From an uncultured bacterium (GTDB lineage Bacteria > GCA-001730085): 32,000 nt of DNA. Of the stretch, positions 2,993 to 32,000 are shown piece after piece; the first letter of the stretch is position 1; each line of letters starts with the position of its first letter. Below the pieces are notes generated by a model. That model saw only the letters and a program-made list of their open reading frames with translations. It was not told the origin of the DNA and made no database searches. The stretch covers positions 4,315-36,314 of the forward strand of contig CAZMGY010000025.1 of NCBI GenBank assembly GCA_964565945.1. The letters run 5' to 3'. Made by a program: the position numbers and the translations under genes.

Positions 2993-3991
2993 TCAGACCC
3001 AATTCAAAAGAGGTAAACAAGGAAGAGCATCTAAATTCAAAGTATCAGTATGGCCTGCTTTCCATTTTTGGTAGGCAAGGCCGCCAATCATAGCCGCATT
3101 ATCAGCCGAAAGCCCCCTGCCTGGAAATGTCACTTGAATTCCAGCGGCCTCGCTTTGTTCGAGCATCACCTCACGTAAACGGCTGTTCAGGGAGACGCCT
3201 CCTCCCACAGCAAGGTGACTCACTCCACATTGTTCAACAGCCAGCAACGATTTTTTGCAGAGCACATCCACTACGGCCTCTTGAAACGACGCACATACGT
3301 CAGCCACATTTTCATTAGGATGATCCTTTAAATGGTAAAGAACAGCCGTTTTAAGCCCGCTAAAACTAAACGCCAAGGGGTTAGCCTTCACCTGACCACG
3401 AGGAAACTTAATTTTGTCTCGCTCCCCCTCTTTGGCAAGCTTATCAACAATAGGTCCTCCTGGATACCCTAGATCCAACATCTTGGCCACTTTGTCAAAC
3501 GCTTCTCCTGCAGCATCATCACAGGTTTGCCCCAAAACACGATATGTTCCCCAAGCCGAAACCCCCGCCAACAATGTGTGCCCTCCCGAAACGATCAAAC
3601 CAACACAGGGTAAAGTGGCTTTTTGCCCCATAAAATTAGCGTATATGTGAGCTTCAATATGATTGACACCAATCAAAGGCTTCTTGTAATGAAACGCTAA
3701 ACTTTTAGCACAACTCAAGCCCACCATTAAAGCTCCAATCAAGCCTGGACCGTATGTAACAGCAAATGCATCAATATCATCTAACGAACAAGCGGCAACC
3801 TCAATAGCCTGATCAACAAGGGGCAACAAAGCCTCTTCATGTGCCCGACACGCCAACTCGGGCACAACACCACCAAAACGTTTGTGCAATTCAACTTGGG
3901 ACGAGATAATATTGCTCAAAATACGATCACCAAACTCAACCACGGATACCGAAGTTTCATCACACGAAGTTTCAATAGCAAGAATTTTCAT
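2993..3991 (-). CDS. tsaD: tRNA N6-adenosine threonylcarbamoyltransferase TsaD (Kae1/Gcp family)
   Basis: MKILAIETSCDETSVSVV..., GVNHIEAHIYA, GLIVSGGHT and GYPGGPIVDKLA are canonical TsaD motifs. Confidence 0.9.
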   Translation of the reverse strand: MKILAIETSCDETSVSVVEFGDRILSNIISSQVELHKRFGGVVPELACRAHEEALLPLVDQAIEVAACSLDDIDAFAVTYGPGLIGALMVGLSCAKSLAFHYKKPLIGVNHIEAHIYANFMGQKATLPCVGLIVSGGHTLLAGVSAWGTYRVLGQTCDDAAGEAFDKVAKMLDLGYPGGPIVDKLAKEGERDKIKFPRGQVKANPLAFSFSGLKTAVLYHLKDHPNENVADVCASFQEAVVDVLCKKSLLAVEQCGVSHLAVGGGVSLNSRLREVMLEQSEAAGIQVTFPGRGLSADNAAMIGGLAYQKWKAGHTDTLNLDALPCLPLLNWV

Positions 3992-4665
3992 CTTATATCC
4001 TTATATATGTGTTTCATTAATGGACGAGGATCAATATTCAACGTTCCCATAAGCAATAAAAACGTATTAATCATCCGTTGTTTAGTGGCACCTACTTTTT
4101 GATAGCGTCGCGAACACGCAATCACAAATTTATCTTTAAACACATGCACAGACCCCTGGTTTCTTAAACGTCGATACAAATCCACATCTTCAAAAAAAGC
4201 CTTTTCGTCAAAACCTCCAAGCGCTTCAAAGTGTTCTCGTAACACAAAAAAACCTTGGTCTCCAAAAGAAAAACGATGAAATTGTGTCCCCCAAGAATGA
4301 ATTCTATTCAAAAAAGAGTCTTCATCAAACTTTAGACGAAATCGCCCAGCTATCATCTCTGTTTCTTCGAAGCATCCACGAATGAAGCACAAAGCCTTCT
4401 CTGGCAAAGAAACATCGCAATGCAAAAAAAGAAGAATCTCTCCAAAAGTATGCCTAGCACCAGTGTTCATCTGGCACGCGCGCCCTTTCTCCGAAGACAA
4501 AACTTTAATGGGGAATTTTTGAGCCTTAGCCCAAGTATCATCGACACTTCCACCATCCACAACACAAATTTCATTGGCTCCATAAGAGAGCAAAGCCTCC
4601 AATTTCTGCTCAATGCTCACAGCTTCATTGTAAACAGGCACAATAATCGATACCGTACGACTCAT
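3988..4665 (-). CDS. Family-2 glycosyltransferase, rSAM/selenodomain-associated transferase 2 type (TIGR04283-like)
   Basis: VSIIVPVYNEA...VVDGGSVDDT...GRACQMNTGA...LLFLHCDVSLP...FGDQGFFV...ACSRRY fits the TIGR04283 pattern as I recall it. An ATGA overlap joins it to the tsaD start. It sits in a cluster with a DUF2064 gene and arsS. Confidence 0.7.
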   Translation of the reverse strand: MSRTVSIIVPVYNEAVSIEQKLEALLSYGANEICVVDGGSVDDTWAKAQKFPIKVLSSEKGRACQMNTGARHTFGEILLFLHCDVSLPEKALCFIRGCFEETEMIAGRFRLKFDEDSFLNRIHSWGTQFHRFSFGDQGFFVLREHFEALGGFDEKAFFEDVDLYRRLRNQGSVHVFKDKFVIACSRRYQKVGATKQRMINTFLLLMGTLNIDPRPLMKHIYKDIR

Positions 4666-4769
4666 ATTTTTCGATCCTTAACAAACCCTATCATTATACA
4701 TGGATCCAGGCTGTCGACCATCTTGATTAATTCCACCAATTCTGGTAGAGAACATTGACGTAATTCAAT

Positions 4770-5103
4770 GTAAAAATAATAAAATTGTCTTTGCTCGGCA
4801 TAATCACAGGAGTTGTGGCAGGTCTTGTAGCAGTCATTCTAACATCCAGTTGTGTAAGCGCTCTTGATGCCGTATGAATAGGCGTTGGGTCCTGGATCAT
4901 TTGCTACATCTTCGTAGCCTACATTAAACCTAAATTGGGATACGACGATACCTTAGACGCCTTTGGTTTTCATGAAATCGACGGTGTACGGGGAGCGCCT
5001 TGACCACAGGTCTTTGGACCTCACCAAAGTGAATTTCGACGGAGCCAAGGGCCTTTTATGGCAATCCAGAATTATTTTTGATCCAAATCAAAGCCACTTT
5101 AAA
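4770..5103 (+). pseudogene. amt: Relic of an ammonium transporter (Amt/AmtB) gene, C-terminal ~110 codons with in-frame stops
   Basis: My translation gives KLSLLGIITGVVAGLVAVILTSSCVSALDAV*IGVGSWIICYIFVAYIKPKLGYDDTLDAFGFHEIDGVRGAP*PQVFG. This parallels E. coli AmtB KPSLLGACSGAIAGLVGVTPA...ALIIGVVAGL...LKRLLRVDDPCDVFGVHGVCGIVGCIMTGIFA. There are at least 3 stops, the N-terminal ~300 codons are missing, and there is no ORF of 60 aa or more. Confidence 0.7.
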
Positions 5104-5165
5104 GCCTAAAGAAGCTACTCCCGAGGCAAACACCACTTCCTCCTCCAATCACTATCACATAATAA

Positions 5166-5792
5166 TCACACTTCATTGTCGCCATCTTTCCTCAAGCTCT
5201 TCAAGTATCTCTCCAGATCCTCCACGGTATCAATATCGTACCAAGGTCTAAGCTCTTTAAAACTTAGGTTAAGTTTGTGTATGCCAGCCAAGGTTTGTGC
5301 AAAAACTCTCTTTGAACTCCATTCAATCGAATCAAACAACGCTTTATCATAAAACTTAGCCTGTACCCCTATCAAATAATATCCCCCATCTTCTGTTACG
5401 CCAATCACAACATTTTTATTTTTTAAGTGTTCATTAGCCAAATAAATCTGTTTTACAGGTAAATCAGGACTATCGCTTCCCACAACCATCACACTTTGGT
5501 ACCCTTGATTGATCACATAACGAAAACACGAATGCAATCGTTCACCTAAATCATGACCCTTTTGCTCTAACACATGTTGAGCACCTAGCCACTCCGTCCA
5601 AATGTCTGAGGATGAATTTGGAGTATGACAAAGCCATACATCGGCCGATACATGTTGAATTTTTTGCCAAAGGACCTCAACAAAGTGCCGATAATACATC
5701 AAAGCGCGATTATCGCCTATCGACTTAGCCAAACGGGTTTTGACCTTACCTAAAACAGGTTCCTTAACAAAAAATAAAAGAGCTGTCGTCAC
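5166..5792 (-). CDS. DUF2064 / rSAM-selenodomain-associated transferase 1 type (TIGR04282-like)
   Basis: The N-terminus TTALLFFVKEPVLGKVKTRLA is the DUF2064 signature. GTG start at 5792 with GGAAGG 7 nt upstream. Neighbourhood includes the TIGR04283-like GT and arsS. Confidence 0.65.
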   Translation of the reverse strand: MTTALLFFVKEPVLGKVKTRLAKSIGDNRALMYYRHFVEVLWQKIQHVSADVWLCHTPNSSSDIWTEWLGAQHVLEQKGHDLGERLHSCFRYVINQGYQSVMVVGSDSPDLPVKQIYLANEHLKNKNVVIGVTEDGGYYLIGVQAKFYDKALFDSIEWSSKRVFAQTLAGIHKLNLSFKELRPWYDIDTVEDLERYLKSLRKDGDNEV

Positions 5793-5893
5793 AATAGGCC
5801 TTCCTAAGACGAAGACTTAAGTTGGTATATCCTCCAACGCAAATCCTTACGATTGTTCAGAGGGACATGGGGCGCTATATACGAAAACAAAAC

Positions 5894-5983
5894 CTAAGCA
5901 TAGTCGTCATCTTTAAGATCGGCATTCCCATAAAGAGCCGTCGCCATAATCGCAAAAAACAACATAATAACGCCTAATCTCAT
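5894..5983 (-). CDS. Candidate 29-codon ORF translationally coupled to arsS (MRLGVIMLFFAIMATALYGNADLKDDDYA)
   Basis: Its ATG overlaps the arsS TGA stop as ATGA. AGGAG lies 7 nt upstream, inside the arsS 3' end. The N-terminus is hydrophobic and signal-like, the tail is acidic. It is below the ORF-track size cutoff and I recognise no homology. Confidence 0.3.
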   Translation of the reverse strand: MRLGVIMLFFAIMATALYGNADLKDDDYA

Positions 5984-6951
5984 AAGGTCGCTCCTGTACA
6001 ACTCGATCCATAACCAGCCGTGCAACCATAACAGTAAGATCCAGTCACAATTTCATATTTGCTACGTATCACTTCATCCAAATTGTTCACTGTCATCACT
6101 CGACCATTCGAATCACGTATGGGCTGTTTCTCCTGTTGATTAAAATCACAGTGATACAAAGTTCCGTGCCAATCAACGTTGATCAAGGAACGGCACATAA
6201 CCGCTTCTGCTACTTTAGTGTTAAAATGATCTGCTAACAGTTGTGTGTACGACTCTAAACGACCTTCTTTGCGCAAAAAATGTTTAAAACGACCGACTGG
6301 CAAATTAGCCAAAGCAAACAATCCCGTAAACTCTATGTCATATCTATCCCGCAATTCCTTGCGGTAGTGATCTTCAAGAATATTCTGTGGACTAGGTAAA
6401 AAATCTCCCGAAGGATTGTAAACCAAATAAAGATTCAAATCACAACCATAACCTCTTTGGTTCAATTGCCTTAATGCTTCAATGCTTTTATCAAAAACAC
6501 CCTTCCCTCTTTGTTCATCCACCGTTTTTTCTGTGTAACAAGGCAACGACGCCACTAAAGTAATTTTTCGCTGAGCGTACCATTCTGGTAAATCTATCAT
6601 CCCTGGTTCAAAAAAAACAGTTAAATTAGTCCGTACCATCACTCGATTCATGTAGGGTTGAGCTTGATCGACAAATGTTTGAAAGTTAGGATTCATTTCG
6701 GGAGCCCCACCCGTTATATCTAGGCAATCAATTTTATGCCTCATTATAAATGCAATGATGTTATCAAACGTGTCTTGTTCCATATTATTGCGACCATTAG
6801 GGCTAGCAGTAACATGGCAATGAACACAGGTCTGATTGCAAAGGTTCCCCACATTGATTTGCAAAGTTTCAATTTTCTTAGGAACCATTAAAGAAGGGTC
6901 AATAGCAAGCATGGTTTGGCGAAAGGCCTTCACTCCAGTCATGGACATCAA
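5980..6951 (-). CDS. arsS: Radical SAM / Cys-rich domain protein, ArsS family (TIGR04167-like)
   Basis: LQINVGNLCNQTCVHCHV (CxxxCxxC), DITGGAPEMNP, VASLPCY, QRGKGVF, MCRSLINVDWHGTLYHCDFNQ and the C-terminal CYGCTAGYGSSCTGA. The start is TTG 6951 or the adjacent ATG 6948; GGAGG lies upstream. Confidence 0.8.
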   Translation of the reverse strand: MMSMTGVKAFRQTMLAIDPSLMVPKKIETLQINVGNLCNQTCVHCHVTASPNGRNNMEQDTFDNIIAFIMRHKIDCLDITGGAPEMNPNFQTFVDQAQPYMNRVMVRTNLTVFFEPGMIDLPEWYAQRKITLVASLPCYTEKTVDEQRGKGVFDKSIEALRQLNQRGYGCDLNLYLVYNPSGDFLPSPQNILEDHYRKELRDRYDIEFTGLFALANLPVGRFKHFLRKEGRLESYTQLLADHFNTKVAEAVMCRSLINVDWHGTLYHCDFNQQEKQPIRDSNGRVMTVNNLDEVIRSKYEIVTGSYCYGCTAGYGSSCTGATL

Positions 6952-26131: not shown

Positions 26132-26266
26132 AATGAATTTCACCCCTTTTTCAACACGACAGGGGGCATTATAACATAAGCAAACACTTTGTCATCGCGC
26201 CCGTGGGGAACACAGGCTGTTTCGCTACATCTATCTTAAAAAATATGTTATACTTTATGCTTGTGG

Positions 26267-26702
26267 GGGGGCGACCAGGTTTCGACCGGGGTCATTGTGC
26301 TCCTGGTGGCATGTCGAGGACTCAGGTGGCCTCGTAAAAAACCTGAACTTTGATAGATGCTAAATCATCTGTTGAAAATAAGGGTGTTGCCGTGAACGAT
26401 GCTAACAACGTGATCTCTTTGAACATGTTGAACAACATTCGTCCTATGGCAATGCCCTTCGCTGCGTAATATACGCTGCCGTCTGGTGCATCCTCGCCTA
26501 TAGGGCTGCATAGGGCGTTCGGTTATATAGGCTAGCAAAGCAATTTTATCTGAGGTTGTGGCGCGAAGTTTTATCAGGCTAGTCGTTGTGATAATCCTGT
26601 CTTTCGGAGTACACAAAGGCGAATGTAAAGGAAAGACTAAGCATGTAGGCACCCAGAGTATAAACCTACGGGACGCGAGTTCGATTCTCGCCGCCTCCAC
26701 CA
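26267..26702 (+). ncRNA. ssrA: tmRNA (SsrA), 436 nt, CCA encoded
   Basis: 5' GGGGGCGACCAGGTTTCGACCGGGG pairs with 3' CGCCTCCACCA (including the G3-U pair). The tRNA-like T arm is GCGAGTTCGATTCTCGC. The internal tag frame ends ...PMAMPFAA-TAA (stop at 26467-26469). Track ORFs covering this region on both strands are artefacts. Confidence 0.9.
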
Positions 26703-26707
26703 ATCGA

Positions 26708-26758
26708 AATGCTAGACGAACCCTCGTCCATAAAGAGTTCCGGACTAGCATTTTTTTT
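26708..26758 (+). terminator. Candidate intrinsic terminator of ssrA
   Basis: AAATGCTAG...CTAGCATTT forms an outer stem with inner pairings (TCC/GGA), followed by T8 (26751-26758). The loop is long, so confidence is moderate. Confidence 0.45.
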
Positions 26759-26782
26759 GCCTTTTTTTCAGATCTTCCACCA

Positions 26783-28396
26783 GCAAACGTATTGGTCACG
26801 CCTCCTAAGGATAAAAATGATGATTTTTCTCCAAGCTCGGGAGTTACAGTTTGGGAGTTTCCTGAGTGGTTCGTAAGTCAAGATGTAAAAAAAGGTGATT
26901 CTAAAACAAGATCACGTTATCTTGTTCATAAAACATCATTAAAGAGAAATAAATCTGAAGGTTTAGATCGTAATAAATACTCGGTTGTACCTGTTCGTTT
27001 TGTAAGAGCATGCAGAAAAGGACATATTGGTGATATAAACTGGCCAAAATTTGTCCATGGCGATGTTGACTGTAAAAGACAACTTTATATGGAAGAAAGA
27101 GGAAGAAGTGGTGACCTTTCAGAAATATTTATAAAGTGTGAATGTGGAAAGTCGCAATCATTACTTGAAGCAAGTAAAATGGATCAACATGCAATTGGCC
27201 CATGTGATGGGCACAGGCCATGGCTTGGTAACTGGGCAGAGGAAAAATGTGGAAAGCCAAATCGGTTATTAATTAGAAATGCTAGTAATGCCTACTTTCC
27301 TCAGATGATGAATGTTATTTCAATTCCTGCGAACGAAGATATTATTTCTGTTGATCTCGATAAAGTTTGGAATGATGTTAAAGAAGTGGAATCTTTAAGT
27401 GAGTTAAATCAACTTTTTAAATTTAATAAAAGTGCAAAAGAAAAACTATCTGCATATACTCCCGAGCAGATTTTTTCTTCTATAGAAGAAAAAAAGAATA
27501 ATTCAAGAAATAACTCTTATAAACCTGTAAAGCAAGCTGAACTTGAGACACTTTTACTTAGTACCGATGAAATTGGAGAAGATAAACCTGATGGTGCTTT
27601 TTTTGCAAGAAATCTTCCTCGTGAGAAGTGGGATCGACCTTGGATGGAGACTATTGACCGTGTGGTCTTAGTTCACAGACTAAGAGAAGTAACAGCGCAA
27701 GTTGGATTTACTCGTTTTGAGGCTGCCGCTCCTGACATATCAGGCGAACTTGACCTTGATATAAACGTAAAACGAGCCGATATTGCAAGAGAATTAAAAT
27801 GGCTCCCTGCTGTAGAAAATAGAGGTGAAGGAATTTTCCTTTCTTTTAACAAAGATGCCATTGAGAAATGGGTAAAGAAACCTGCGGTTATTGCACGATC
27901 AAAAAAAACTCGAAGAAGGTTTTTATAAATGGGCTGATGAGGCAAAGTCAAAAAGAGAGTTTCCAGGCCTTCCATACTACTTACTACATTCAATTTCTCA
28001 TTTATTAATTACTGCGGTGTCATTGGATTGTGGCTATCCTGCTAGTTCTATAATAGAGCGTGTATATGGAGAAGAAAATAGCCAAGGTTACGGTATTTTA
28101 CTCTTTACAGGCAGTCCGATGCAGAAGACACTCTGGGAGGCTTAATTGAAGTTGGTCGAAATATTCACAAGCATTTAAAATCAGCTTTGGAAATGGCTGA
28201 GTTATGTTCCAATGATCCTGTTTGTGCCCATCATTCACCTCCAAACCCTCATGAAAAAAGATATTTAATGGGAGCCGCTTGTCATAGCTGTCTACTCATT
28301 GCGGAAACTTCTTGTGAAATGCAGAATAATCATCTTGATCGTGCTTTAGTTATTCCAACTGTGGAAAATTTAGGTGCGGAATTTTTTAGGCCGTGA
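26783..28396 (+). pseudogene. drmB: DrmB-like DUF1998 protein gene (DISARM-type), 5'-truncated and split by two frameshifts
   Basis: Three track ORFs (frames 2/0/2) join into one protein. The N-terminal and middle parts read ...WEFPEWF...VPVRFVRACRKGHIGDINWPKFVH...CKRQLYMEERGRSGDLSEIFIKCECGKSQS...LLHSISHLLITAVSLDCGYPASSIIERVYG. The C-terminal part reads GSP(D)AEDTLGGLIEVGR...CSNDPVCAHH...GAACHSCLLIAETSCEMQNNHLDRALV (the DUF1998 Cys4 signature). The shifts are at the A8 tract 27901-27908 and near 28118. No start codon exists after the tmRNA. Confidence 0.7.
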
Positions 28397-29134
28397 CTAT
28401 GAGTGATATATTAAAAGATTTAACATCTTCAAGTATTTACGACATTATTGAAGCATTGAATGGAAAAAGAATTTCTCATCCATTTACTTCAATTACACTA
28501 TCAAGGTTTTTACCTAAATTAATATCTGAGGATATCTCAATTTATCTAAATGAGATGATTGCCAAAGGATTTAATGAAGTAACTTTGGCGATTACTTTGG
28601 AATTGGTAGCAAAGGAAAGGGAAAGTTGGAAAAACTTAAATGGTGACTCTGTTGATTTAGTATCGACTGGTCCAGAAGTTATTGAATAGACCTCAAAAGA
28701 TACGAGCGTTGTAGTGCGTGAACTTTTTCAATCAGCAAAACAGGAAGTTGTTTTATCAGGATATACTGTTTATCAAGGGCTTTCCGTTTTTAAGGCTCTT
28801 GCAGAGGCAATGGATGAAAATAAAAATCTTACTGTGAAGATGTATTTAGATGTAAAGCGCGAATATCGAGACACTAAAACAGAAAATGAAGAAATTTTAA
28901 AGGCTTTTATTGATCGCTTTTAAAATGAACAATGGCCGGGAAAACCATTTCCTGAAATTTACTATGATCCAAGGTCTTTAGTGAAAGACCCTAAAAAGAG
29001 ATCGTGCTTGCATGCTAAATGTGTTGTTATTGATAAAAAGGTTTCTTGTTCGTTCTGAGTGGCTTGCTCAAAAGCTTACTGCCCAGTTTCAAAAATTAGC
29101 AGAAGCTTCAATTATTGAAAAGATTGATTTTTAA
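28393..29134 (+). pseudogene. drmC: DrmC-like phospholipase-D-family nuclease gene with in-frame stops and internal deletion
   Basis: One frame reads ...VDLVSTGPEVIE*TSKDTSVVVRELFQSAKQEVVLSGY...AFIDRF*NEQWPGKPFPEIYYDPR...CLHAKCVVIDKKV (the HxK(x)4D half of HKD). It then shifts to LVRSEWLAQKLTAQFQKLAEASIIEKIDF*. The expected GSxN segment between these parts is absent. Confidence 0.65.
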
Positions 29135-29177
29135 TTTAATAAAATATAGAATTTCACAATAGAAGTAAGGAGGGAAT

Positions 29178-29291
29178 ATGTCTATTTGCTTAGTTAAAAC
29201 TGTTGCAATATATAGACATTACGAAGAACTTATAGAGGGGATACAAGCAGCGATACCGCAACAAAGAGGTTCAAGTTTGGTGAAATCTTAA
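29178..29291 (+). CDS. Small ORF (37 aa) with strong SD, function unknown, possibly a gene fragment
   Basis: TAAGGAGGGAAT-ATG gives MSICLVKTVAIYRHYEELIEGIQAAIPQQRGSSLVKS*. No recognisable family. It lies in the junction between two decayed systems. Confidence 0.2.
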   Translation: MSICLVKTVAIYRHYEELIEGIQAAIPQQRGSSLVKS

Positions 29292-29299
29292 TGAATGTC

Positions 29300-29530
29300 T
29301 TACCTCAAACTCTTTCAAGAAAAGTTTTAAAGTTCTCTAAAGTGTTCTTCGTAATTGGGCTTTTCTCTAACAAGGAACTTGTTTTTAAGGTCAATGAGTA
29401 TATATTGAGAAATCATGGAACATTCTTATATTCTATTCAAATCCTCATCACCTAAATAAAGGTTTTTATCTCCCAAAACCTTTAATAAAGTATATATTTC
29501 GCTCCATTCACCTTTATTTCCTGTAATCAT
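29300..29530 (-). pseudogene. Truncated restriction endonuclease relic, HpaII-family-like N-terminus
   Basis: Its ATG overlaps the methyltransferase stop (ATGA). The translation MITGNKGEWSEIYTLLKVLGDKNLYLGDEDLNRI* (stop at 29426) matches my recollection of the HpaII-family N-terminal NKGEWSE...LKLL.DGKLY motif. Roughly 270 or more codons of a normal enzyme are missing. Confidence 0.5.
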
Positions 29531-30576
29531 ATAAGATTAATCCTTTCAAGTATCTTTTTTGCCATTGCCTGAATAGCAGGAACAGCAACAGAATTACCAA
29601 ACTGTTTATATGCTTGTCCATCAGAAACCACAATTTTAAATTTATCAGGATAACCTTGTAATCTTGCCCACTCTCTAGGGGTCATTTTGCGTATACCTTC
29701 CCGATTTACTTCTCCTTTAATATGCGTCACAGGAATAAAATTAGTTAATTTCTTATCAATAACCAAATTTCTTTCTCTGCCCATACCACCAACAACAATT
29801 GCATTTGATATCCCTGTATCTTCTATAATTTCATATCCAAAGCCATTGCCCTTACTTTCATGTCTTGCCTTATGATTTTTAAGAGTTTCTAAATATTGTG
29901 TTGATAAATAATACTTAACAGAAACTTCCTTTTCTTCTAAAATATCTTTGACTTTAACTTTAATATCAAGCGAAGACGGATATTCAAAATCTTTAATACC
30001 TAAGTCACCTCTAAATCCAACAATAAAAATTCTTTCTCTATTTTGAGGAACTCCAAAATCTTTTGCATTAATAGTTTGAGGGTCTGGCACATAATAGCCT
30101 AAATCATTTCTTAAAACATGTAATATTGTAGATAAAGTTTTTCCTTTATCATGATTAAGTAAACCTTTTACATTTTCAAGAAAAAAAGCTTTAGGCTTTT
30201 TCCTCTTTATAATTTCTGCAACATCAAAGAAAAGAGTACCTCTTATATCTTCAACCCCCCCCCTTTTACCAGCTATTGAAAAAGCCTGACAAGGAAAACC
30301 TGCACACAATATATCAAAATTATCCGGGATATAACTCTTTGTTTCTTCCTTTGTGATATCAGCAAAGGGAATTTCACCAAAATTAGCTTCATATGTCTTT
30401 TTTGAATATGTATCCCATTCACTTGTAAAGATACATTTGCCACCTAAATTTTGAAATGCAAGTCTAAAACCACCTATACCAGCAAACAAGTCAATAAATT
30501 TAAATTTAGGGGATTCAAATTCAGGAAATGGGATATTTTTTTTTAAATCGTTAATTGATATCGTTTCTAACTTCAT
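29527..30576 (-). CDS. DNA (cytosine-5)-methyltransferase, intact
   Basis: All canonical motifs are present: I FIDLFAGIGGF, IV GFPCQAFS, VI ENVKGLL, VIII QNRERIFIVG, IX/X REWARLQGYP and GNSVAVP. Preferred start is ATG 30576 (MKLETISI...) with GAGAGG 7 nt upstream. Confidence 0.9.
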   Translation of the reverse strand: MKLETISINDLKKNIPFPEFESPKFKFIDLFAGIGGFRLAFQNLGGKCIFTSEWDTYSKKTYEANFGEIPFADITKEETKSYIPDNFDILCAGFPCQAFSIAGKRGGVEDIRGTLFFDVAEIIKRKKPKAFFLENVKGLLNHDKGKTLSTILHVLRNDLGYYVPDPQTINAKDFGVPQNRERIFIVGFRGDLGIKDFEYPSSLDIKVKVKDILEEKEVSVKYYLSTQYLETLKNHKARHESKGNGFGYEIIEDTGISNAIVVGGMGRERNLVIDKKLTNFIPVTHIKGEVNREGIRKMTPREWARLQGYPDKFKIVVSDGQAYKQFGNSVAVPAIQAMAKKILERINLI

Positions 30577-30949
30577 AAATAAGCCTCTCAATTTTTTCAA
30601 AACAAACACTTAAGTTTTTCTTAATTTCTTTGCCCCAAAATCTTAAAACCCTCTACCCAGCTCTTTCTATATTTTTTTTAATTTTATTATGCCAAAAATC
30701 CACATTGCTCTTGTGGTCATATTTTCTTTTTTCCCAGTCTTTTCCCTACCACAATTCACTACCACAAAAGATTGCTATTCTCAAAGACTTAAATGTTAAA
30801 TCCGGCTTACCAAAAACAGTTTTATCATTTTTTCTATATCGGTATCCCTTATGCCAGAGAGCTTTTGCAAGTTCTTGTTCTATCTTAGAACCTTTATTTT
30901 TAACAGCTCTCATATTTTTTTGTCTTTGTTCTTTCGTTAATTTATTCAT
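30551..30949 (-). pseudogene. vsr: Very-short-patch repair endonuclease (Vsr) gene with two in-frame TAG stops and a ~10-codon deletion
   Basis: MNKLTKEQRQKNMRAVKNKGSKIEQELAKALWHKGYRYRKNDKTVFGKPDLTF...IAIFCGSELW*GKDW...VDFWHNKIKKNIERAG*RVLRFWGKEIKKNL. Compare E. coli Vsr TRSKNMRAI...GRPDFVV...VIFTHGCFWHHH...FWLEKIGKNVERDRRDISRLQELGWRVLIVWE. The frame ends overlapping the MTase start. Confidence 0.75.
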
Positions 30950-31045
30950 AAGAATACCAAAATAAAACTTTGCAAAAAATTATAATATAAGATAGACAAA
31001 ATCGGAAGGCTAAAACATTTAAACTCACGCAATTTTCAATAAACA

Positions 31046-31110
31046 AGTTCTAACATTGTCTAACCAGCGACCCTTTTCGAGCACTCCAGCAAGTAAGACC
31101 CGCAAAATGA
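31046..31110 (-). repeat. Decayed copy of an internal segment of the neighbouring gene (compare 31735-31800)
   Basis: CCAGCGACCCTTTTCGAGCACTCCAGCAAGTAAGACCCGCAAAATGA aligns by eye with CCCAACGACTCTTTTCGGTACTCCAGCGAGTAATACCCGCAAACGGA (codons PFAGITRWSTEKSRWVG). Orientation is the same, identity is roughly 80%, and there is one indel. Confidence 0.55.
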
Positions 31111-31119
31111 AATAGTAAT

Positions 31120-31156
31120 ATAAAAAAGAAAAACCCCCTGGTTTTCACCATGGGGT
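31120..31156 (-). terminator. Rho-independent terminator of the 31188-32000 gene
   Basis: The minus strand reads CCCCATGGT-GAAA-ACCAGGGGG (9-bp stem with one mismatch, GNRA tetraloop) followed by TTTTTCTTTTTT, about 30 nt after the stop codon. Confidence 0.65.
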
Positions 31157-31187
31157 TTTCACAAATTTCTTCTGTATCCCATCGCTC

Positions 31188-32000
31188 TCAGGCGCTATAC
31201 AAGGTCGAGTTCCGTTCAAACGTTTGAGCTAAGCTTACTCCTTTAATGACCCATGTTCCCTCCACAATAGCAGAGAAAGATGCTCCTCTTTGCTTAGCAT
31301 CCAACGTATTTTGAGCCATATTAATCAATAATAATAGCTTATGAACAAGTCTTTGCAGATCTTTGTTACCAATAGCTTGGGCCAGCTTAATAGCCTCACC
31401 CAAACCCTTTACCGAATCACTAGGAACAGCCAGCGCCTCTAAACCCAAATCTTGAATCGTACCAACATTATTCTGGTACGCCCTTAATCCTAGCACTAAA
31501 TCTTCTAACTCGCTCACCTTCCTGTTAGCCATTGCTAAAGCATGAACTTTAGCATTGAATGCACCCAGAGCTATAATATACGCCTTACTATCCGCCGTAA
31601 TAGCCTCAGAAGTTAAACCATAGCGGGTAAGCATTTCTGCTTCCGAGGTAGCCCCAGCTTCTGTCATCATCAAAGCTTTGATACCTTCAAACAAAGCCGT
31701 ATATTCAAACACAGCCTCCGAAGGAAAGCTTTCTTTAACTCGAACAACTCCAACCCAACGACTCTTTTCGGTACTCCAGCGAGTAATACCCGCAAACGGA
31801 CTATCTTCTGATTTATCAGTAAGATAAACTGTTTCTGTTTTAAGCTCACCACCACCCGTTTCTCTAAACTGAACTTGTTTTTGAGTTATACCGCGAGCGC
31901 CAGTATCAAAAGGCCTAGCTTGACCTTTAAATCCTTGAACACGACTAGCAACTTCTAGGCTTACCAATTCCCCCCCCAAATCTAAGGTTAAGTAACTACC
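31188..32000 (-). CDS. Hypothetical protein, C-terminal 270 or more codons (frame remains open to the window edge)
   Basis: Long ORF; the codons upstream of the track's TTG start are still open to position 32000. Ala/Leu-rich, probably helical C-terminal half. No family recognised. A strong terminator lies downstream. Confidence 0.5.
   Translation of the reverse strand, partial: GSYLTLDLGGELVSLEVASRVQGFKGQARPFDTGARGITQKQVQFRETGGGELKTETVYLTDKSEDSPFAGITRWSTEKSRWVGVVRVKESFPSEAVFEYTALFEGIKALMMTEAGATSEAEMLTRYGLTSEAITADSKAYIIALGAFNAKVHALAMANRKVSELEDLVLGLRAYQNNVGTIQDLGLEALAVPSDSVKGLGEAIKLAQAIGNKDLQRLVHKLLLLINMAQNTLDAKQRGASFSAIVEGTWVIKGVSLAQTFERNSTLYSA

What the first reader, a model, noticed from the sequence alone, without database searches (positions are those of the whole stretch)
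26703..31110. Integrase-less, AT-rich island of dead defence genes abutting the 3' end of ssrA
Seen: directly after the encoded CCA of the tmRNA the sequence becomes visibly AT-richer. Gene content switches from housekeeping to defence-type genes (DUF1998/DrmB-like, PLD/DrmC-like, C5-methyltransferase, Vsr, HpaII-type endonuclease N-terminus). Every one of these except the methyltransferase carries truncations, frameshifts or stops. Established: tmRNA 3' ends are classic island integration sites, normally leaving an integrase next to ssrA and a direct repeat of the ssrA 3' end at the far side. Neither is present here. Inference: this is an old ssrA-associated defence island in late decay, with selective retention of one gene.
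Basis: partly seen in the sequence, partly recalled or inferred. Interest (0 to 1): 0.7.

Follow-up and report, generated by a model that had tools for sequence, protein, structure and literature searches.

The report
Decayed defence-gene block beside tmRNA gene
Next to the tmRNA gene lies a 4.3-kb stretch of foreign, AT-rich DNA holding the wreck of two anti-phage systems (a DISARM operon tail and an HpaII-type restriction-modification cassette) in which only the cytosine methyltransferase is still intact; this is an ordinary kind of genome scar, with one side-light: the chromosome strongly avoids CCGG, the site this enzyme family is expected to target.

Summary
The tmRNA gene is at 26267-26702. 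A low-GC block at 26801-31063 (33.5% vs 42.6% GC) deviates 10-16 sd from the backbone in di- and tetranucleotide signature. All five proposed families were recovered, and every gene but the methyltransferase is broken.

The interpretation needs four corrections.
- There are two modules, not one. The first is the last 2.3 kb of a class 1 DISARM operon: drmB lacking codons 1-67 with two frameshifts, and drmC with two stops and a 62-bp deletion. It is 86.5% nt identical to an intact drmD-drmMI-drmA-drmB-drmC operon in a metagenome contig. The second is a convergent vsr-M-R HpaII-type cassette, 79-81% aa identical to Flavobacteriia M genes.
- The foreign DNA starts 98 bp after the CCA, beyond a terminator-like hairpin, at a breakpoint inside drmB. 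The present junction is therefore a deletion scar, not an attachment site. ssrA-directed integration is plausible but unproven.
- The decay is structural, not old. dN/dS is 0.07-0.14, the pseudogene lineage shows no rate excess, and GC3 (0.16) is un-ameliorated.
- Selective retention of M is only suggestive (P about 0.07). R-before-M loss is expected anyway.

Extras: CCGG is the most under-represented tetranucleotide in the backbone (O/E 0.25), and M carries an improbable G9 tract. Overall this is an ordinary kind of feature, of low to moderate interest.

The parts
26267..26702 (+). ssrA (tmRNA gene), full length, ends in CCA
   Evidence: ARAGORN; Rfam RF00023 at 160.4 bits, model positions 1-374
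26703..26800 (+). 98-bp spacer of host-like GC (0.429). It holds a terminator-like hairpin (stem about 26706-26754) and two U-runs. The last 35 nt are of unknown origin.
   Evidence: Fold at -16.2 kcal/mol, z -2.7; GC; no similarity to L012 or other loci
26801..28396 (+). drmB pseudogene (DUF1998/MZB protein of DISARM). It lacks codons 1-67, has a +1 insertion at 27901, a -1 deletion at 28117/28118 and an in-frame 3-bp deletion at 26887/26888.
   Evidence: NCBIfam DrmB_fam at 508 bits, profile 76-604 of 604; PADLOC DrmB; 90% aa to intact P0126; block alignment to L012
28393..29134 (+). drmC pseudogene (PLD-family). GTG replaces the ATG start. TAG at 28687 (Ser in L012), TAA at 28921 (Lys in L012), and a 62-bp deletion at 29041/29042 just after the HxK motif.
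   Evidence: PADLOC DrmC at 205 bits; NCBIfam DISARM_DrmC_I at 98 bits; alignment to L012
29137..29428 (.). Unassigned 292-bp junction between the two convergent modules
   Evidence: No Pfam hit in six frames at E<=1; no significant similarity to R.HpaII homologs or to fetched loci; no Rfam hit
29426..29530 (-). First 34 codons of an HpaII-family restriction endonuclease gene, then a stop. About 325 codons are missing. Its ATG overlaps the M stop by 4 bp (ATGA), as in intact homologs.
   Evidence: PF09561 profile 1-39 of 359; tblastn 62-71% identity to R residues 1-34 of L009/L011, nothing further
29527..30576 (-). Intact C5-cytosine DNA methyltransferase: 349 aa from the ATG, with GAGAGG 7 nt upstream (an alternative GTG at 30609 gives 360 aa). 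All catalytic motifs are present.
   Evidence: PF00145 at 344.9 bits vs 348-352 for homologs in intact R-M pairs; aligns end to end with M.HhaI and with the 360-aa M of an intact HpaII-family pair on an Acinetobacter plasmid, 71% identity; 79-81% to Flavobacteriia M
30255..30263 (-). G9 homopolymer (C9 on + strand) inside the M gene, coding KRGGV in the catalytic-loop region
   Evidence: Homologs read CGA GGA GGT TTT where the window reads AGG GGG GGG GTT. P about 0.0003-0.003 under the gene's own codon usage. Length is identical in L001, L008 and L017.
30551..30949 (-). vsr pseudogene. In-frame stops at 30746-30748 and 30653-30655. Positions equivalent to E. coli Vsr H64, C66, H69, H71 and C73 are replaced. 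Its 3' end overlaps the M start by 26 nt.
   Evidence: PF03852 at 84 bits; TIGR00632 at 108 bits; alignment to 1cw0
30950..31063 (.). Very AT-rich (GC 0.246) region upstream of vsr; the right end of the foreign block
31064..31106 (-). 43-nt relic of a paralog of the 31188 gene (36/42 identical to 31755-31796, same orientation); host-like GC resumes here
   Evidence: Local alignment score 53 vs shuffles 19.7 +/- 2.2, max 28; repeat family D1
31118..31160 (-). Intrinsic terminator-like hairpin plus T-run of the 31188 gene. All short-read assemblies of this organism stop at 31129.
   Evidence: Fold at -23.7 kcal/mol, z -3.0; contig ends
31188..31979 (-). Host-GC ORF of a lineage-specific family with no known domains. 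It may run past the window end. There is a G8 tract at its 5' end (31970-31977).
   Evidence: No Pfam, NCBIfam, PADLOC or PHROG hit; only three fragmentary relatives among 1.84 billion representatives

Best explanation
The block 26801-31063 is a composite remnant of two horizontally acquired defence modules lying just downstream of ssrA.

Module A was a five-gene class 1 DISARM operon (drmD-drmMI-drmA-drmB-drmC). A deletion of at least 10.2 kb removed everything up to codon 67 of drmB. That deletion created the present junction 98 bp past the tmRNA CCA. What is left then picked up two frameshifts, two stops and a 62-bp deletion.

Module B is a convergently oriented HpaII-type type II cassette (vsr-M-R). 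All but 34 codons of R were deleted and vsr was knocked out. That leaves an intact methyltransferase, which is probably still active as an orphan and is predicted to act on CCGG.

Neither module can defend any more. DISARM needs DrmA and DrmB, and the R-M cassette has no nuclease. M survives first because a cell with a live R cannot lose M, so R goes first. Selection on M is possible but not demonstrated.

Shown: the gene identities, the lesions, the breakpoints, the foreign composition and the low sequence-level decay. Inferred: the order of events, an original site-specific insertion at ssrA (with any integrase lost in the left-hand deletion), CCGG specificity, and activity of M.
For: Gene identities and lesions.

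An intact drmD-drmMI-drmA-drmB-drmC operon exists in L012-L015. It is 86.5% nt identical to window 26801-29047, and the homology starts exactly at drmB codon 68. The class 1 gene set follows 10.1101/2021.12.28.474362.

M homologs are followed by full R.HpaII genes with the same 4-bp overlap in L009-L011 and on Acinetobacter plasmids.

Foreign composition.

Recent inactivation: dN/dS of 0.07 and 0.14, a non-significant relative-rate test, and GC3 of 0.16.

M is as good a match to PF00145 as the homologs in live systems.

The same junctions and lesions appear at >=99.9% identity in more than 10 independent SRA-run assemblies, so this is not a chimera.

The backbone avoids CCGG four-fold, and CCGG is the most under-represented 4-mer. 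That fits long exposure of this lineage to CCGG-specific restriction or methylation.
Against: - No integrase, no att repeat, and a 98-bp host-like spacer with a terminator. There is therefore no positive evidence that ssrA was ever the integration target.
- Only 5.3 kb downstream of ssrA is visible.
- No related genome lacking the block could be found, so insertion is inferred from composition and donor similarity only.
- CCGG specificity rests on family association with R.HpaII-family genes, not on a test.
- M carries 26 substitutions at positions invariant in seven homologs, including two in the catalytic loop, so activity is not certain.
- CCGG avoidance looks older than an un-ameliorated cassette and may be due to other systems.
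Confidence: 0.72

Rival explanations
1. There never was an ssrA-targeted integrative island. The region downstream of ssrA is simply a variable spot. The two defence fragments arrived by illegitimate or flank-homology recombination, possibly already truncated, and adjacency to ssrA is incidental.
For: No integrase or att repeat. The foreign DNA starts 98 bp past the CCA, after a terminator-like hairpin. The left edge lies inside a gene. The right edge abuts a 43-nt relic of a host paralog, which is typical of deletion or illegitimate joining rather than of site-specific recombination. The two modules have different closest relatives.
Against: tmRNA 3' ends are well-documented island targets whose far-side repeats can lie tens of kb away (PMC3146451), and the window shows only 5.3 kb. 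A single deletion from the ssrA-proximal end would remove an integrase together with drmD, drmMI and drmA.
Confidence: 0.3
2. The methyltransferase is kept by selection as a working orphan enzyme, for epigenetic regulation or protection against incoming HpaII-type systems. It is possibly switched on and off by its G9 tract (a phase-variable methyltransferase).
For: It is the only intact ORF among genes carrying about 2.6 lesions per kb, giving P(0) of about 0.07. Its PF00145 score equals that of live homologs. dN/dS to homologs is 0.07-0.085. The G9 tract is built by four substitutions and is improbable under the gene's codon usage. Another G-tract, at ssrA, varies between samples. CCGG is the most avoided 4-mer in the host.
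Against: P of about 0.07 is not significant, and R-first loss predicts an orphan M without selection. dS is saturated, so dN/dS mostly reflects history before transfer. The G9 tract has the same length in all four assemblies that cover it. There are 26 lineage-specific substitutions at otherwise invariant positions.
Confidence: 0.2
3. The C5-methyltransferase is DrmMII, the accessory cytosine methylase of the DISARM system, rather than part of a separate R-M cassette.
For: It matches the PADLOC DrmMII model PDLC02653 at 303 bits. Some class 1 DISARM systems carry an extra drmMII (10.1101/2021.12.28.474362).
Against: It scores better against type II MTase models, at 405 bits. It is on the opposite strand. 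Its stop overlaps the start of an R.HpaII remnant, exactly as in intact M-R pairs. The closest intact DISARM relative has no C5 methylase after drmC. The GC differs between the two modules.
Confidence: 0.03
4. The AT-rich block is an assembly or binning chimera that joins DNA of other organisms to this chromosome.
For: It is strongly deviant in composition, and its best matches are in other phyla.
Against: The left junction (ssrA through drmB) and the internal junctions are reproduced at >=99.9% identity in many independent SRA-run assemblies: L001, L008, L017, L018-L022, L024. L001 and L008 cross the right junction into 66 bp of host-like sequence.
Confidence: 0.02

Closest known systems
Class 1 DISARM (drmD-drmMI-drmA-drmB-drmC; 10.1101/2021.12.28.474362, PMC9142583)
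   Same: drmB and drmC are clear family members (NCBIfam DrmB_fam at 508 bits; DISARM_DrmC_I and PADLOC DrmC). They overlap in the same order as in the family, and they are 86.5% nt identical to a complete five-gene class 1 operon (L012).
   Different: Only the last 2.3 kb of about 12.6 kb remains. drmD, drmMI, drmA and 67 codons of drmB are absent, and both remaining genes are disrupted. It cannot work as DISARM.
HpaII-family type II restriction-modification cassettes (M followed by R with a 4-bp overlap), as in Flavobacteriia genomes (L009-L011) and Acinetobacter plasmids (NZ_AP021938.1)
   Same: The same M family (71-81% aa), the same M-to-R order and ATGA overlap, and a canonical M length of 349-360 aa. 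An upstream vsr resembles the arrangement I recall for the H. parainfluenzae HpaII locus (own knowledge, not checked here).
   Different: R is reduced to 34 codons and vsr is dead. The flavobacterial homologs have a 77-aa N-terminal extension and no vsr. The window's M carries a G9 tract and 26 private substitutions.
ssrA (tmRNA) genomic islands, e.g. Dehalococcoides ssrA-GIs (PMC3146451)
   Same: Low-GC foreign DNA immediately downstream of the single-copy tmRNA gene.
   Different: [quoted passage not shown]
Orphan DNA methyltransferases derived from degraded R-M systems (reviews PMC12707154, PMC6471742)
   Same: An intact M beside the remnant of its cognate R.
   Different: There is no evidence yet of conservation across strains or of activity. 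The Vsr repair partner is also dead.

Membership tests
ssrA-integrated genomic island (site-specific) | Foreign DNA begins at or within the 3' end of the tmRNA gene | tested here: inconclusive
   Foreign composition and donor homology begin at 26801, 98 bp after the CCA. The spacer has host-like GC and a terminator-like hairpin.
ssrA-integrated genomic island (site-specific) | Integrase or recombinase gene adjacent to ssrA | tested here: not met
   There is no room in the 98-bp spacer. No recombinase domain was found in any ORF or six-frame piece of 26703-31187.
ssrA-integrated genomic island (site-specific) | [quoted passage not shown] | tested here: not met
   None within the window. Only 5.3 kb downstream is visible, and repeats can lie much farther away (PMC3146451).
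ssrA-integrated genomic island (site-specific) | Block absent at this site in related genomes | not testable with these tools
   The closest genomes found share only 34-37% identity in the flanking PmbA-like protein and have no ssrA nearby. All close matches are the same near-clonal strain.
Class 1 DISARM | drmB (DUF1998/MZB) present | tested here: met
   NCBIfam DrmB_fam at 508 bits (cut-off 240) on the repaired reading frame. As it stands it is a pseudogene.
Class 1 DISARM | drmC (PLD) present | tested here: met
   PADLOC DrmC at 205 bits. NCBIfam DISARM_DrmC_I at 98 bits is below its 133 cut-off because of the deletion. It is a pseudogene.
Class 1 DISARM | drmA helicase, drmD SNF2 helicase and drmMI N6-adenine methylase upstream in the same operon | tested here: not met
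   ssrA lies where they should be. They are present in the intact relative L012.
HpaII-type type II R-M system | C5-MTase with all catalytic motifs | tested here: met
   PF00145 at 345 bits, covering profile positions 1-323 of 324. FxGxG, PCQ, ENV, QxRxR and GNS motifs are present.
HpaII-type type II R-M system | Full-length HpaII-family endonuclease (about 359 aa) downstream of M | tested here: not met
   Only codons 1-34 remain.
HpaII-type type II R-M system | CCGG recognition and methylation | not testable with these tools
   Inferred from linkage of this M family to PF09561 endonucleases. The host backbone's CCGG O/E of 0.25 is compatible but not specific proof.
Phase-variable methyltransferase (contingency locus) | Homopolymer tract in the reading frame whose length varies within or between populations | tested here: inconclusive
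   A G9 tract is present and is statistically unexpected. Its length is the same in the window and in three other assemblies. Read-level data were not available.
DrmMII (DISARM cytosine methylase) | Encoded within the DISARM operon | tested here: not met
   It is on the opposite strand, linked to vsr and to the R.HpaII remnant, and absent from the closest intact DISARM operon.

The most novel reading that the evidence does not exclude
The surviving enzyme is an active orphan CCGG cytosine methyltransferase that has lost both its nuclease and its Vsr repair partner. Unrepaired 5mC deamination, or earlier restriction pressure, has made CCGG the rarest tetranucleotide of the chromosome. The improbable G9 tract in its catalytic-loop codons makes it a switchable (phase-variable) epigenetic regulator in an uncharacterised bacterial lineage that also carries G-tracts at ssrA and at a lineage-specific multi-copy gene family.
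Probability: 0.15. Interest if true: 0.55.

Novelty: new member of a known kind. Interest (0 to 1): 0.3.

Why it matters
It is mainly a clean, datable example of how defence systems die. Decay goes by a few large deletions first and point lesions later. The methyltransferase outlasts its nuclease and its mismatch-repair partner.

It also corrects likely annotation errors. One is a 446-aa 'protein' that gene callers start inside ssrA. Another is a possible mislabelling of the methylase as DrmMII.

If the methylase is active, the locus offers a natural test of what an unrepaired CCGG methylase does to a genome, because the host backbone already shows four-fold CCGG depletion. None of this opens a new class of system.

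Tried and rejected
- Comparative synteny failed. Scans of GTDB species genomes and JGI metagenomes with the ssrA-flanking PmbA-like protein found only 34-37% relatives with no ssrA nearby. All exact-protein look-ups returned the same near-clonal strain.
- By eye I thought 29137-29428 held a C-terminal piece of R.HpaII. Alignment scores were no better than shuffles, and neither Pfam nor blastn gave anything.
- I worried that M was N-terminally truncated, because flavobacterial homologs are about 70 aa longer. This was rejected: M.HhaI and a 360-aa M from an intact Acinetobacter plasmid pair align end to end with it.
- I tried to tell deamination from restriction avoidance using the excess of TCGG (O/E 1.62). 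In sense-strand counts CCGA and TCGG are equal (58 vs 59). Also, the replacement bases at xCC|GGx are not enriched for T. No mutational signature can be claimed.
- The 31188 ORF gave no word-based homologs and no PHROG, Pfam or NCBIfam hit. AlphaFold without an alignment gave pLDDT 38.8, so no fold search was made. The look-up of its fragmentary relative P0246 found nothing on record.
- A search for the SRA run numbers in the literature found nothing. The host taxon remains unknown.
- Plasmid and phage collections hold nothing similar to the block as a whole, only M (plus R) homologs at about 70% nt.
- A permissive Rfam scan of the block found only the tmRNA.

Full report
**What is there.**

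ARAGORN and Rfam both place a full-length tmRNA gene at 26267-26702 on the + strand, ending in CCA. To its left lies a dense run of housekeeping genes on the minus strand. These include tldD/pmbA-like genes, an M23 peptidase, hrcA-grpE-dnaK-dnaJ and serA, at 42.6% GC.

To the right of ssrA the GC drops:
- 26801-29136: 0.358
- 29137-29428: 0.315
- 29429-30949: 0.308
- 30950-31063: 0.246
- from 31064 onward: back to 0.43

The first 98 bp after the CCA (26703-26800) have host-like GC (0.429). They fold into a terminator-like hairpin followed by U-runs.

The 4.3-kb block is far outside the backbone's own variation:
- GC is 33.5%, against a minimum of 39.3% for backbone windows of equal size.
- Dinucleotide delta* is 0.108 against 0.030 +/- 0.007.
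- Tetranucleotide distance is 0.0344 against 0.0113 +/- 0.0014.

The compositional observation is therefore confirmed, with corrected edges at 26801 and 31063.

**Module A: the tail of a class 1 DISARM operon.**

Once the frameshifts are bridged, the + strand reading frames give a DrmB-family protein. It scores 508 bits on NCBIfam DrmB_fam over profile positions 76-604 of 604, and it also hits PADLOC DrmB and PF09369. Next comes a DrmC PLD protein (PADLOC 205 bits; NCBIfam DISARM_DrmC_I 98 bits; PF13091 only 17 bits).

A database search found an intact 599-aa DrmB that is 90% identical (P0126). Its contigs (L012-L015) carry a complete operon: drmD (SNF2), drmMI (N6-adenine methylase, 1286 aa), drmA (1142 aa), drmB and drmC. 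This is the class 1 gene set as defined in 10.1101/2021.12.28.474362.

At the DNA level, window 26801-29047 is 86.5% identical to L012 10202-12451. Homology starts exactly at drmB codon 68. The lesions relative to the intact copy are:
- loss of everything upstream of that codon, at least 10.2 kb;
- a +1 insertion in an A-run at 27901;
- a -1 deletion at 28117/28118;
- TAG at 28687 (Ser in L012) and TAA at 28921 (Lys in L012) in drmC;
- a 62-bp deletion at 29041/29042, just after the HxK motif.

**Module B: an HpaII-type vsr-M-R cassette on the minus strand.**

M (29527-30576) is uninterrupted. It matches PF00145 over the whole profile at 344.9 bits, against 348-352 bits for homologs that sit in intact systems.

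Its best relatives are 79-81% identical proteins of marine Flavobacteriia such as Winogradskyella, Aequorivita and Gillisia. In three fetched loci, each of these is followed by a 359-aa HpaII-family endonuclease gene with a 4-bp overlap.

In the window the same ATGA overlap is present, but only the first 34 codons of R remain (62-71% identity), followed by a stop and unrelated sequence.

The flavobacterial M proteins have a 77-aa N-terminal extension that the window lacks. This is natural variation rather than a lesion. M.HhaI aligns end to end with the window's M. So does a 360-aa M paired with an intact HpaII-family enzyme on Acinetobacter plasmids.

Upstream of M, vsr (30551-30949) has two in-frame stops. 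It also has substitutions at the positions of E. coli Vsr H64, C66, H69, H71 and C73.

The 292 bp between the two convergent modules (29137-29428) could not be assigned.

**The right edge.**

At 31064-31106, where host-like GC resumes, there is a 43-nt stretch that is 36/42 identical to 31755-31796 inside the neighbouring 31188 gene, in the same orientation. Its alignment score is 53, against 19.7 +/- 2.2 for shuffles. I read it as a relic of a paralog clipped when the foreign DNA was joined or trimmed. A terminator-like hairpin of the 31188 gene follows.

**Is it real and not a chimera?**

Contigs assembled independently from more than ten sequencing runs reproduce the ssrA-drmB junction, the internal junctions and all lesions at >=99.9% identity. 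The population is nearly clonal, and no variant without the block was seen.

**How old is it?**

Against the intact L012 genes, dS is 0.6-0.7 but dN/dS is only 0.07 (drmB) and 0.14 (drmC).

I used the Bacteriovoracaceae MAG operon (L016, 66% aa) as an outgroup. Amino-acid changes private to the pseudogene lineage are then not significantly more numerous than those private to the intact lineage: 18 vs 11 (p = 0.26) and 11 vs 9 (p = 0.82).

Substitutions show no drift towards host GC: 132 GC-to-AT vs 113 AT-to-GC. GC3 of M is 0.16, against 0.37-0.45 in host genes.

The genes therefore spent nearly all of their divergence under purifying selection. The inactivation, which was dominated by large deletions, is recent on that scale. 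'Late decay' is true of gene content, not of sequence.

**Is it an ssrA island?**

Adjacency is the only positive evidence. There is no recombinase domain and no copy of the ssrA 3' end. The junction is a breakpoint inside drmB, beyond a spacer with a terminator.

One deletion starting near ssrA would explain the simultaneous loss of an integrase and of drmD, drmMI and drmA. I therefore keep ssrA-directed integration as the more likely origin, but a rival without any integrase cannot be excluded. Far-side repeats can lie tens of kb away (PMC3146451), and the window ends 5.3 kb after ssrA.

**Is the methyltransferase kept by selection?**

The neighbouring genes carry about 7 point lesions in 2.74 kb. 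That predicts about 2.7 lesions in M, so P(0) is about 0.07, which is suggestive only.

dN/dS to homologs is 0.07-0.085, but dS is saturated. M also has 26 private substitutions at positions invariant in seven homologs.

A cell with a live nuclease cannot lose M, so R-first loss yields an orphan M without selection. This is established R-M logic (reviewed in PMC12707154).

M is not DrmMII. It is on the other strand, it is tied to R.HpaII and vsr, and the closest intact DISARM operon has no such gene.

**Two side observations bear on M.**

First, CCGG, the site cut by HpaII-family enzymes, is the most under-represented tetranucleotide in the backbone.
- It occurs 8 times against 31.7 expected (O/E 0.25, z = -5.1).
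- This holds in all three thirds of the backbone.
- It is visible at synonymous positions: codons ending in CC are followed by GG once, where about 19 occurrences are expected.
- Unrelated control loci give an O/E of 1.1-1.2, while a Gillisia locus with a live HpaII system gives 0.48.
- The block itself is not depleted (3 vs 2.8).

Avoidance of R-M sites is a known phenomenon (PMC6286503). Whether restriction or 5mC deamination without Vsr caused it here could not be decided.

Second, M contains a G9 tract (30255-30263) in its catalytic-loop codons. It reads AGG GGG GGG GTT where homologs read CGA GGA GGT TTT. The probability is about 0.0003-0.003 under the gene's own codon usage. Its length is the same in all four assemblies, so phase variation remains a hypothesis.

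**Verdict.**

This is a real and well-delimited, but ordinary, remnant of two defence modules next to ssrA, with an orphan cytosine methyltransferase. It is a new member of known kinds, of low to moderate interest.

Noticed in passing
window 1-26800 and 31064-32000 (backbone): CCGG is the most under-represented tetranucleotide (8 observed vs 31.7 expected, O/E 0.25, z -5.1), and TCGG is the most over-represented (O/E 1.62). Codons ending in CC are followed by GG once, where about 19 occurrences are expected. The foreign block is not depleted.
   Followed up: partly
window 30255-30263: There is a G9 tract on the coding strand inside the intact methyltransferase. It was created by four substitutions relative to homologs, including a Phe-to-Val change at an otherwise invariant position. 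It is statistically unexpected in a gene with GC3 of 0.16. Its length is invariant in four assemblies.
   Followed up: partly
window 26265-26271: The G-run at the very 5' end of ssrA is G7 in the window, L001 and L008, but G8 in L017, L018, L022 and L024. This is a homopolymer length polymorphism between samples of an otherwise near-clonal strain.
   Followed up: partly
window 31188-32000 and 31064-31106: The 31188 ORF belongs to a lineage-specific family. Its only relatives among 1.84 billion representatives are three fragments (50, 131 and 102 aa; 67-88% identity) lying on one 9.9-kb NCBI contig, i.e. a broken paralog. A 43-nt relic of a further copy sits at the island edge. The ORF has a G8 tract at its 5' end (31970-31977). 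All short-read assemblies stop at 31129, at the base of its terminator hairpin, which suggests repeated sequence there.
   Followed up: partly
window 26356-26466: Following the Rfam alignment, the tmRNA tag reading frame encodes an unusually long 36-aa tag (AKSSVENKGVAVNDANNVISLNMLNNIRPMAMPFAA). The model shows a 78-nt insertion there. ARAGORN instead reports AAVWCILAYRAA from a different position.
   Followed up: no
window 26558-27928: Gene callers in public assemblies call a 446-456-aa 'protein' (P0127) that starts inside ssrA, reads through the terminator and continues into the drmB pseudogene. This is an annotation artefact.
   Followed up: yes
whole window: The host has no close relative in GTDB species genomes or JGI metagenomes; the best match to the flanking PmbA-like protein is 34-37%. 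Yet the same strain (>=99.9% identity) turns up in many SRA runs. Its taxon could not be determined. The backbone encodes arsenosugar-biosynthesis genes (arsS with two glycosyltransferase-like genes, at 3988-6951).
   Followed up: partly
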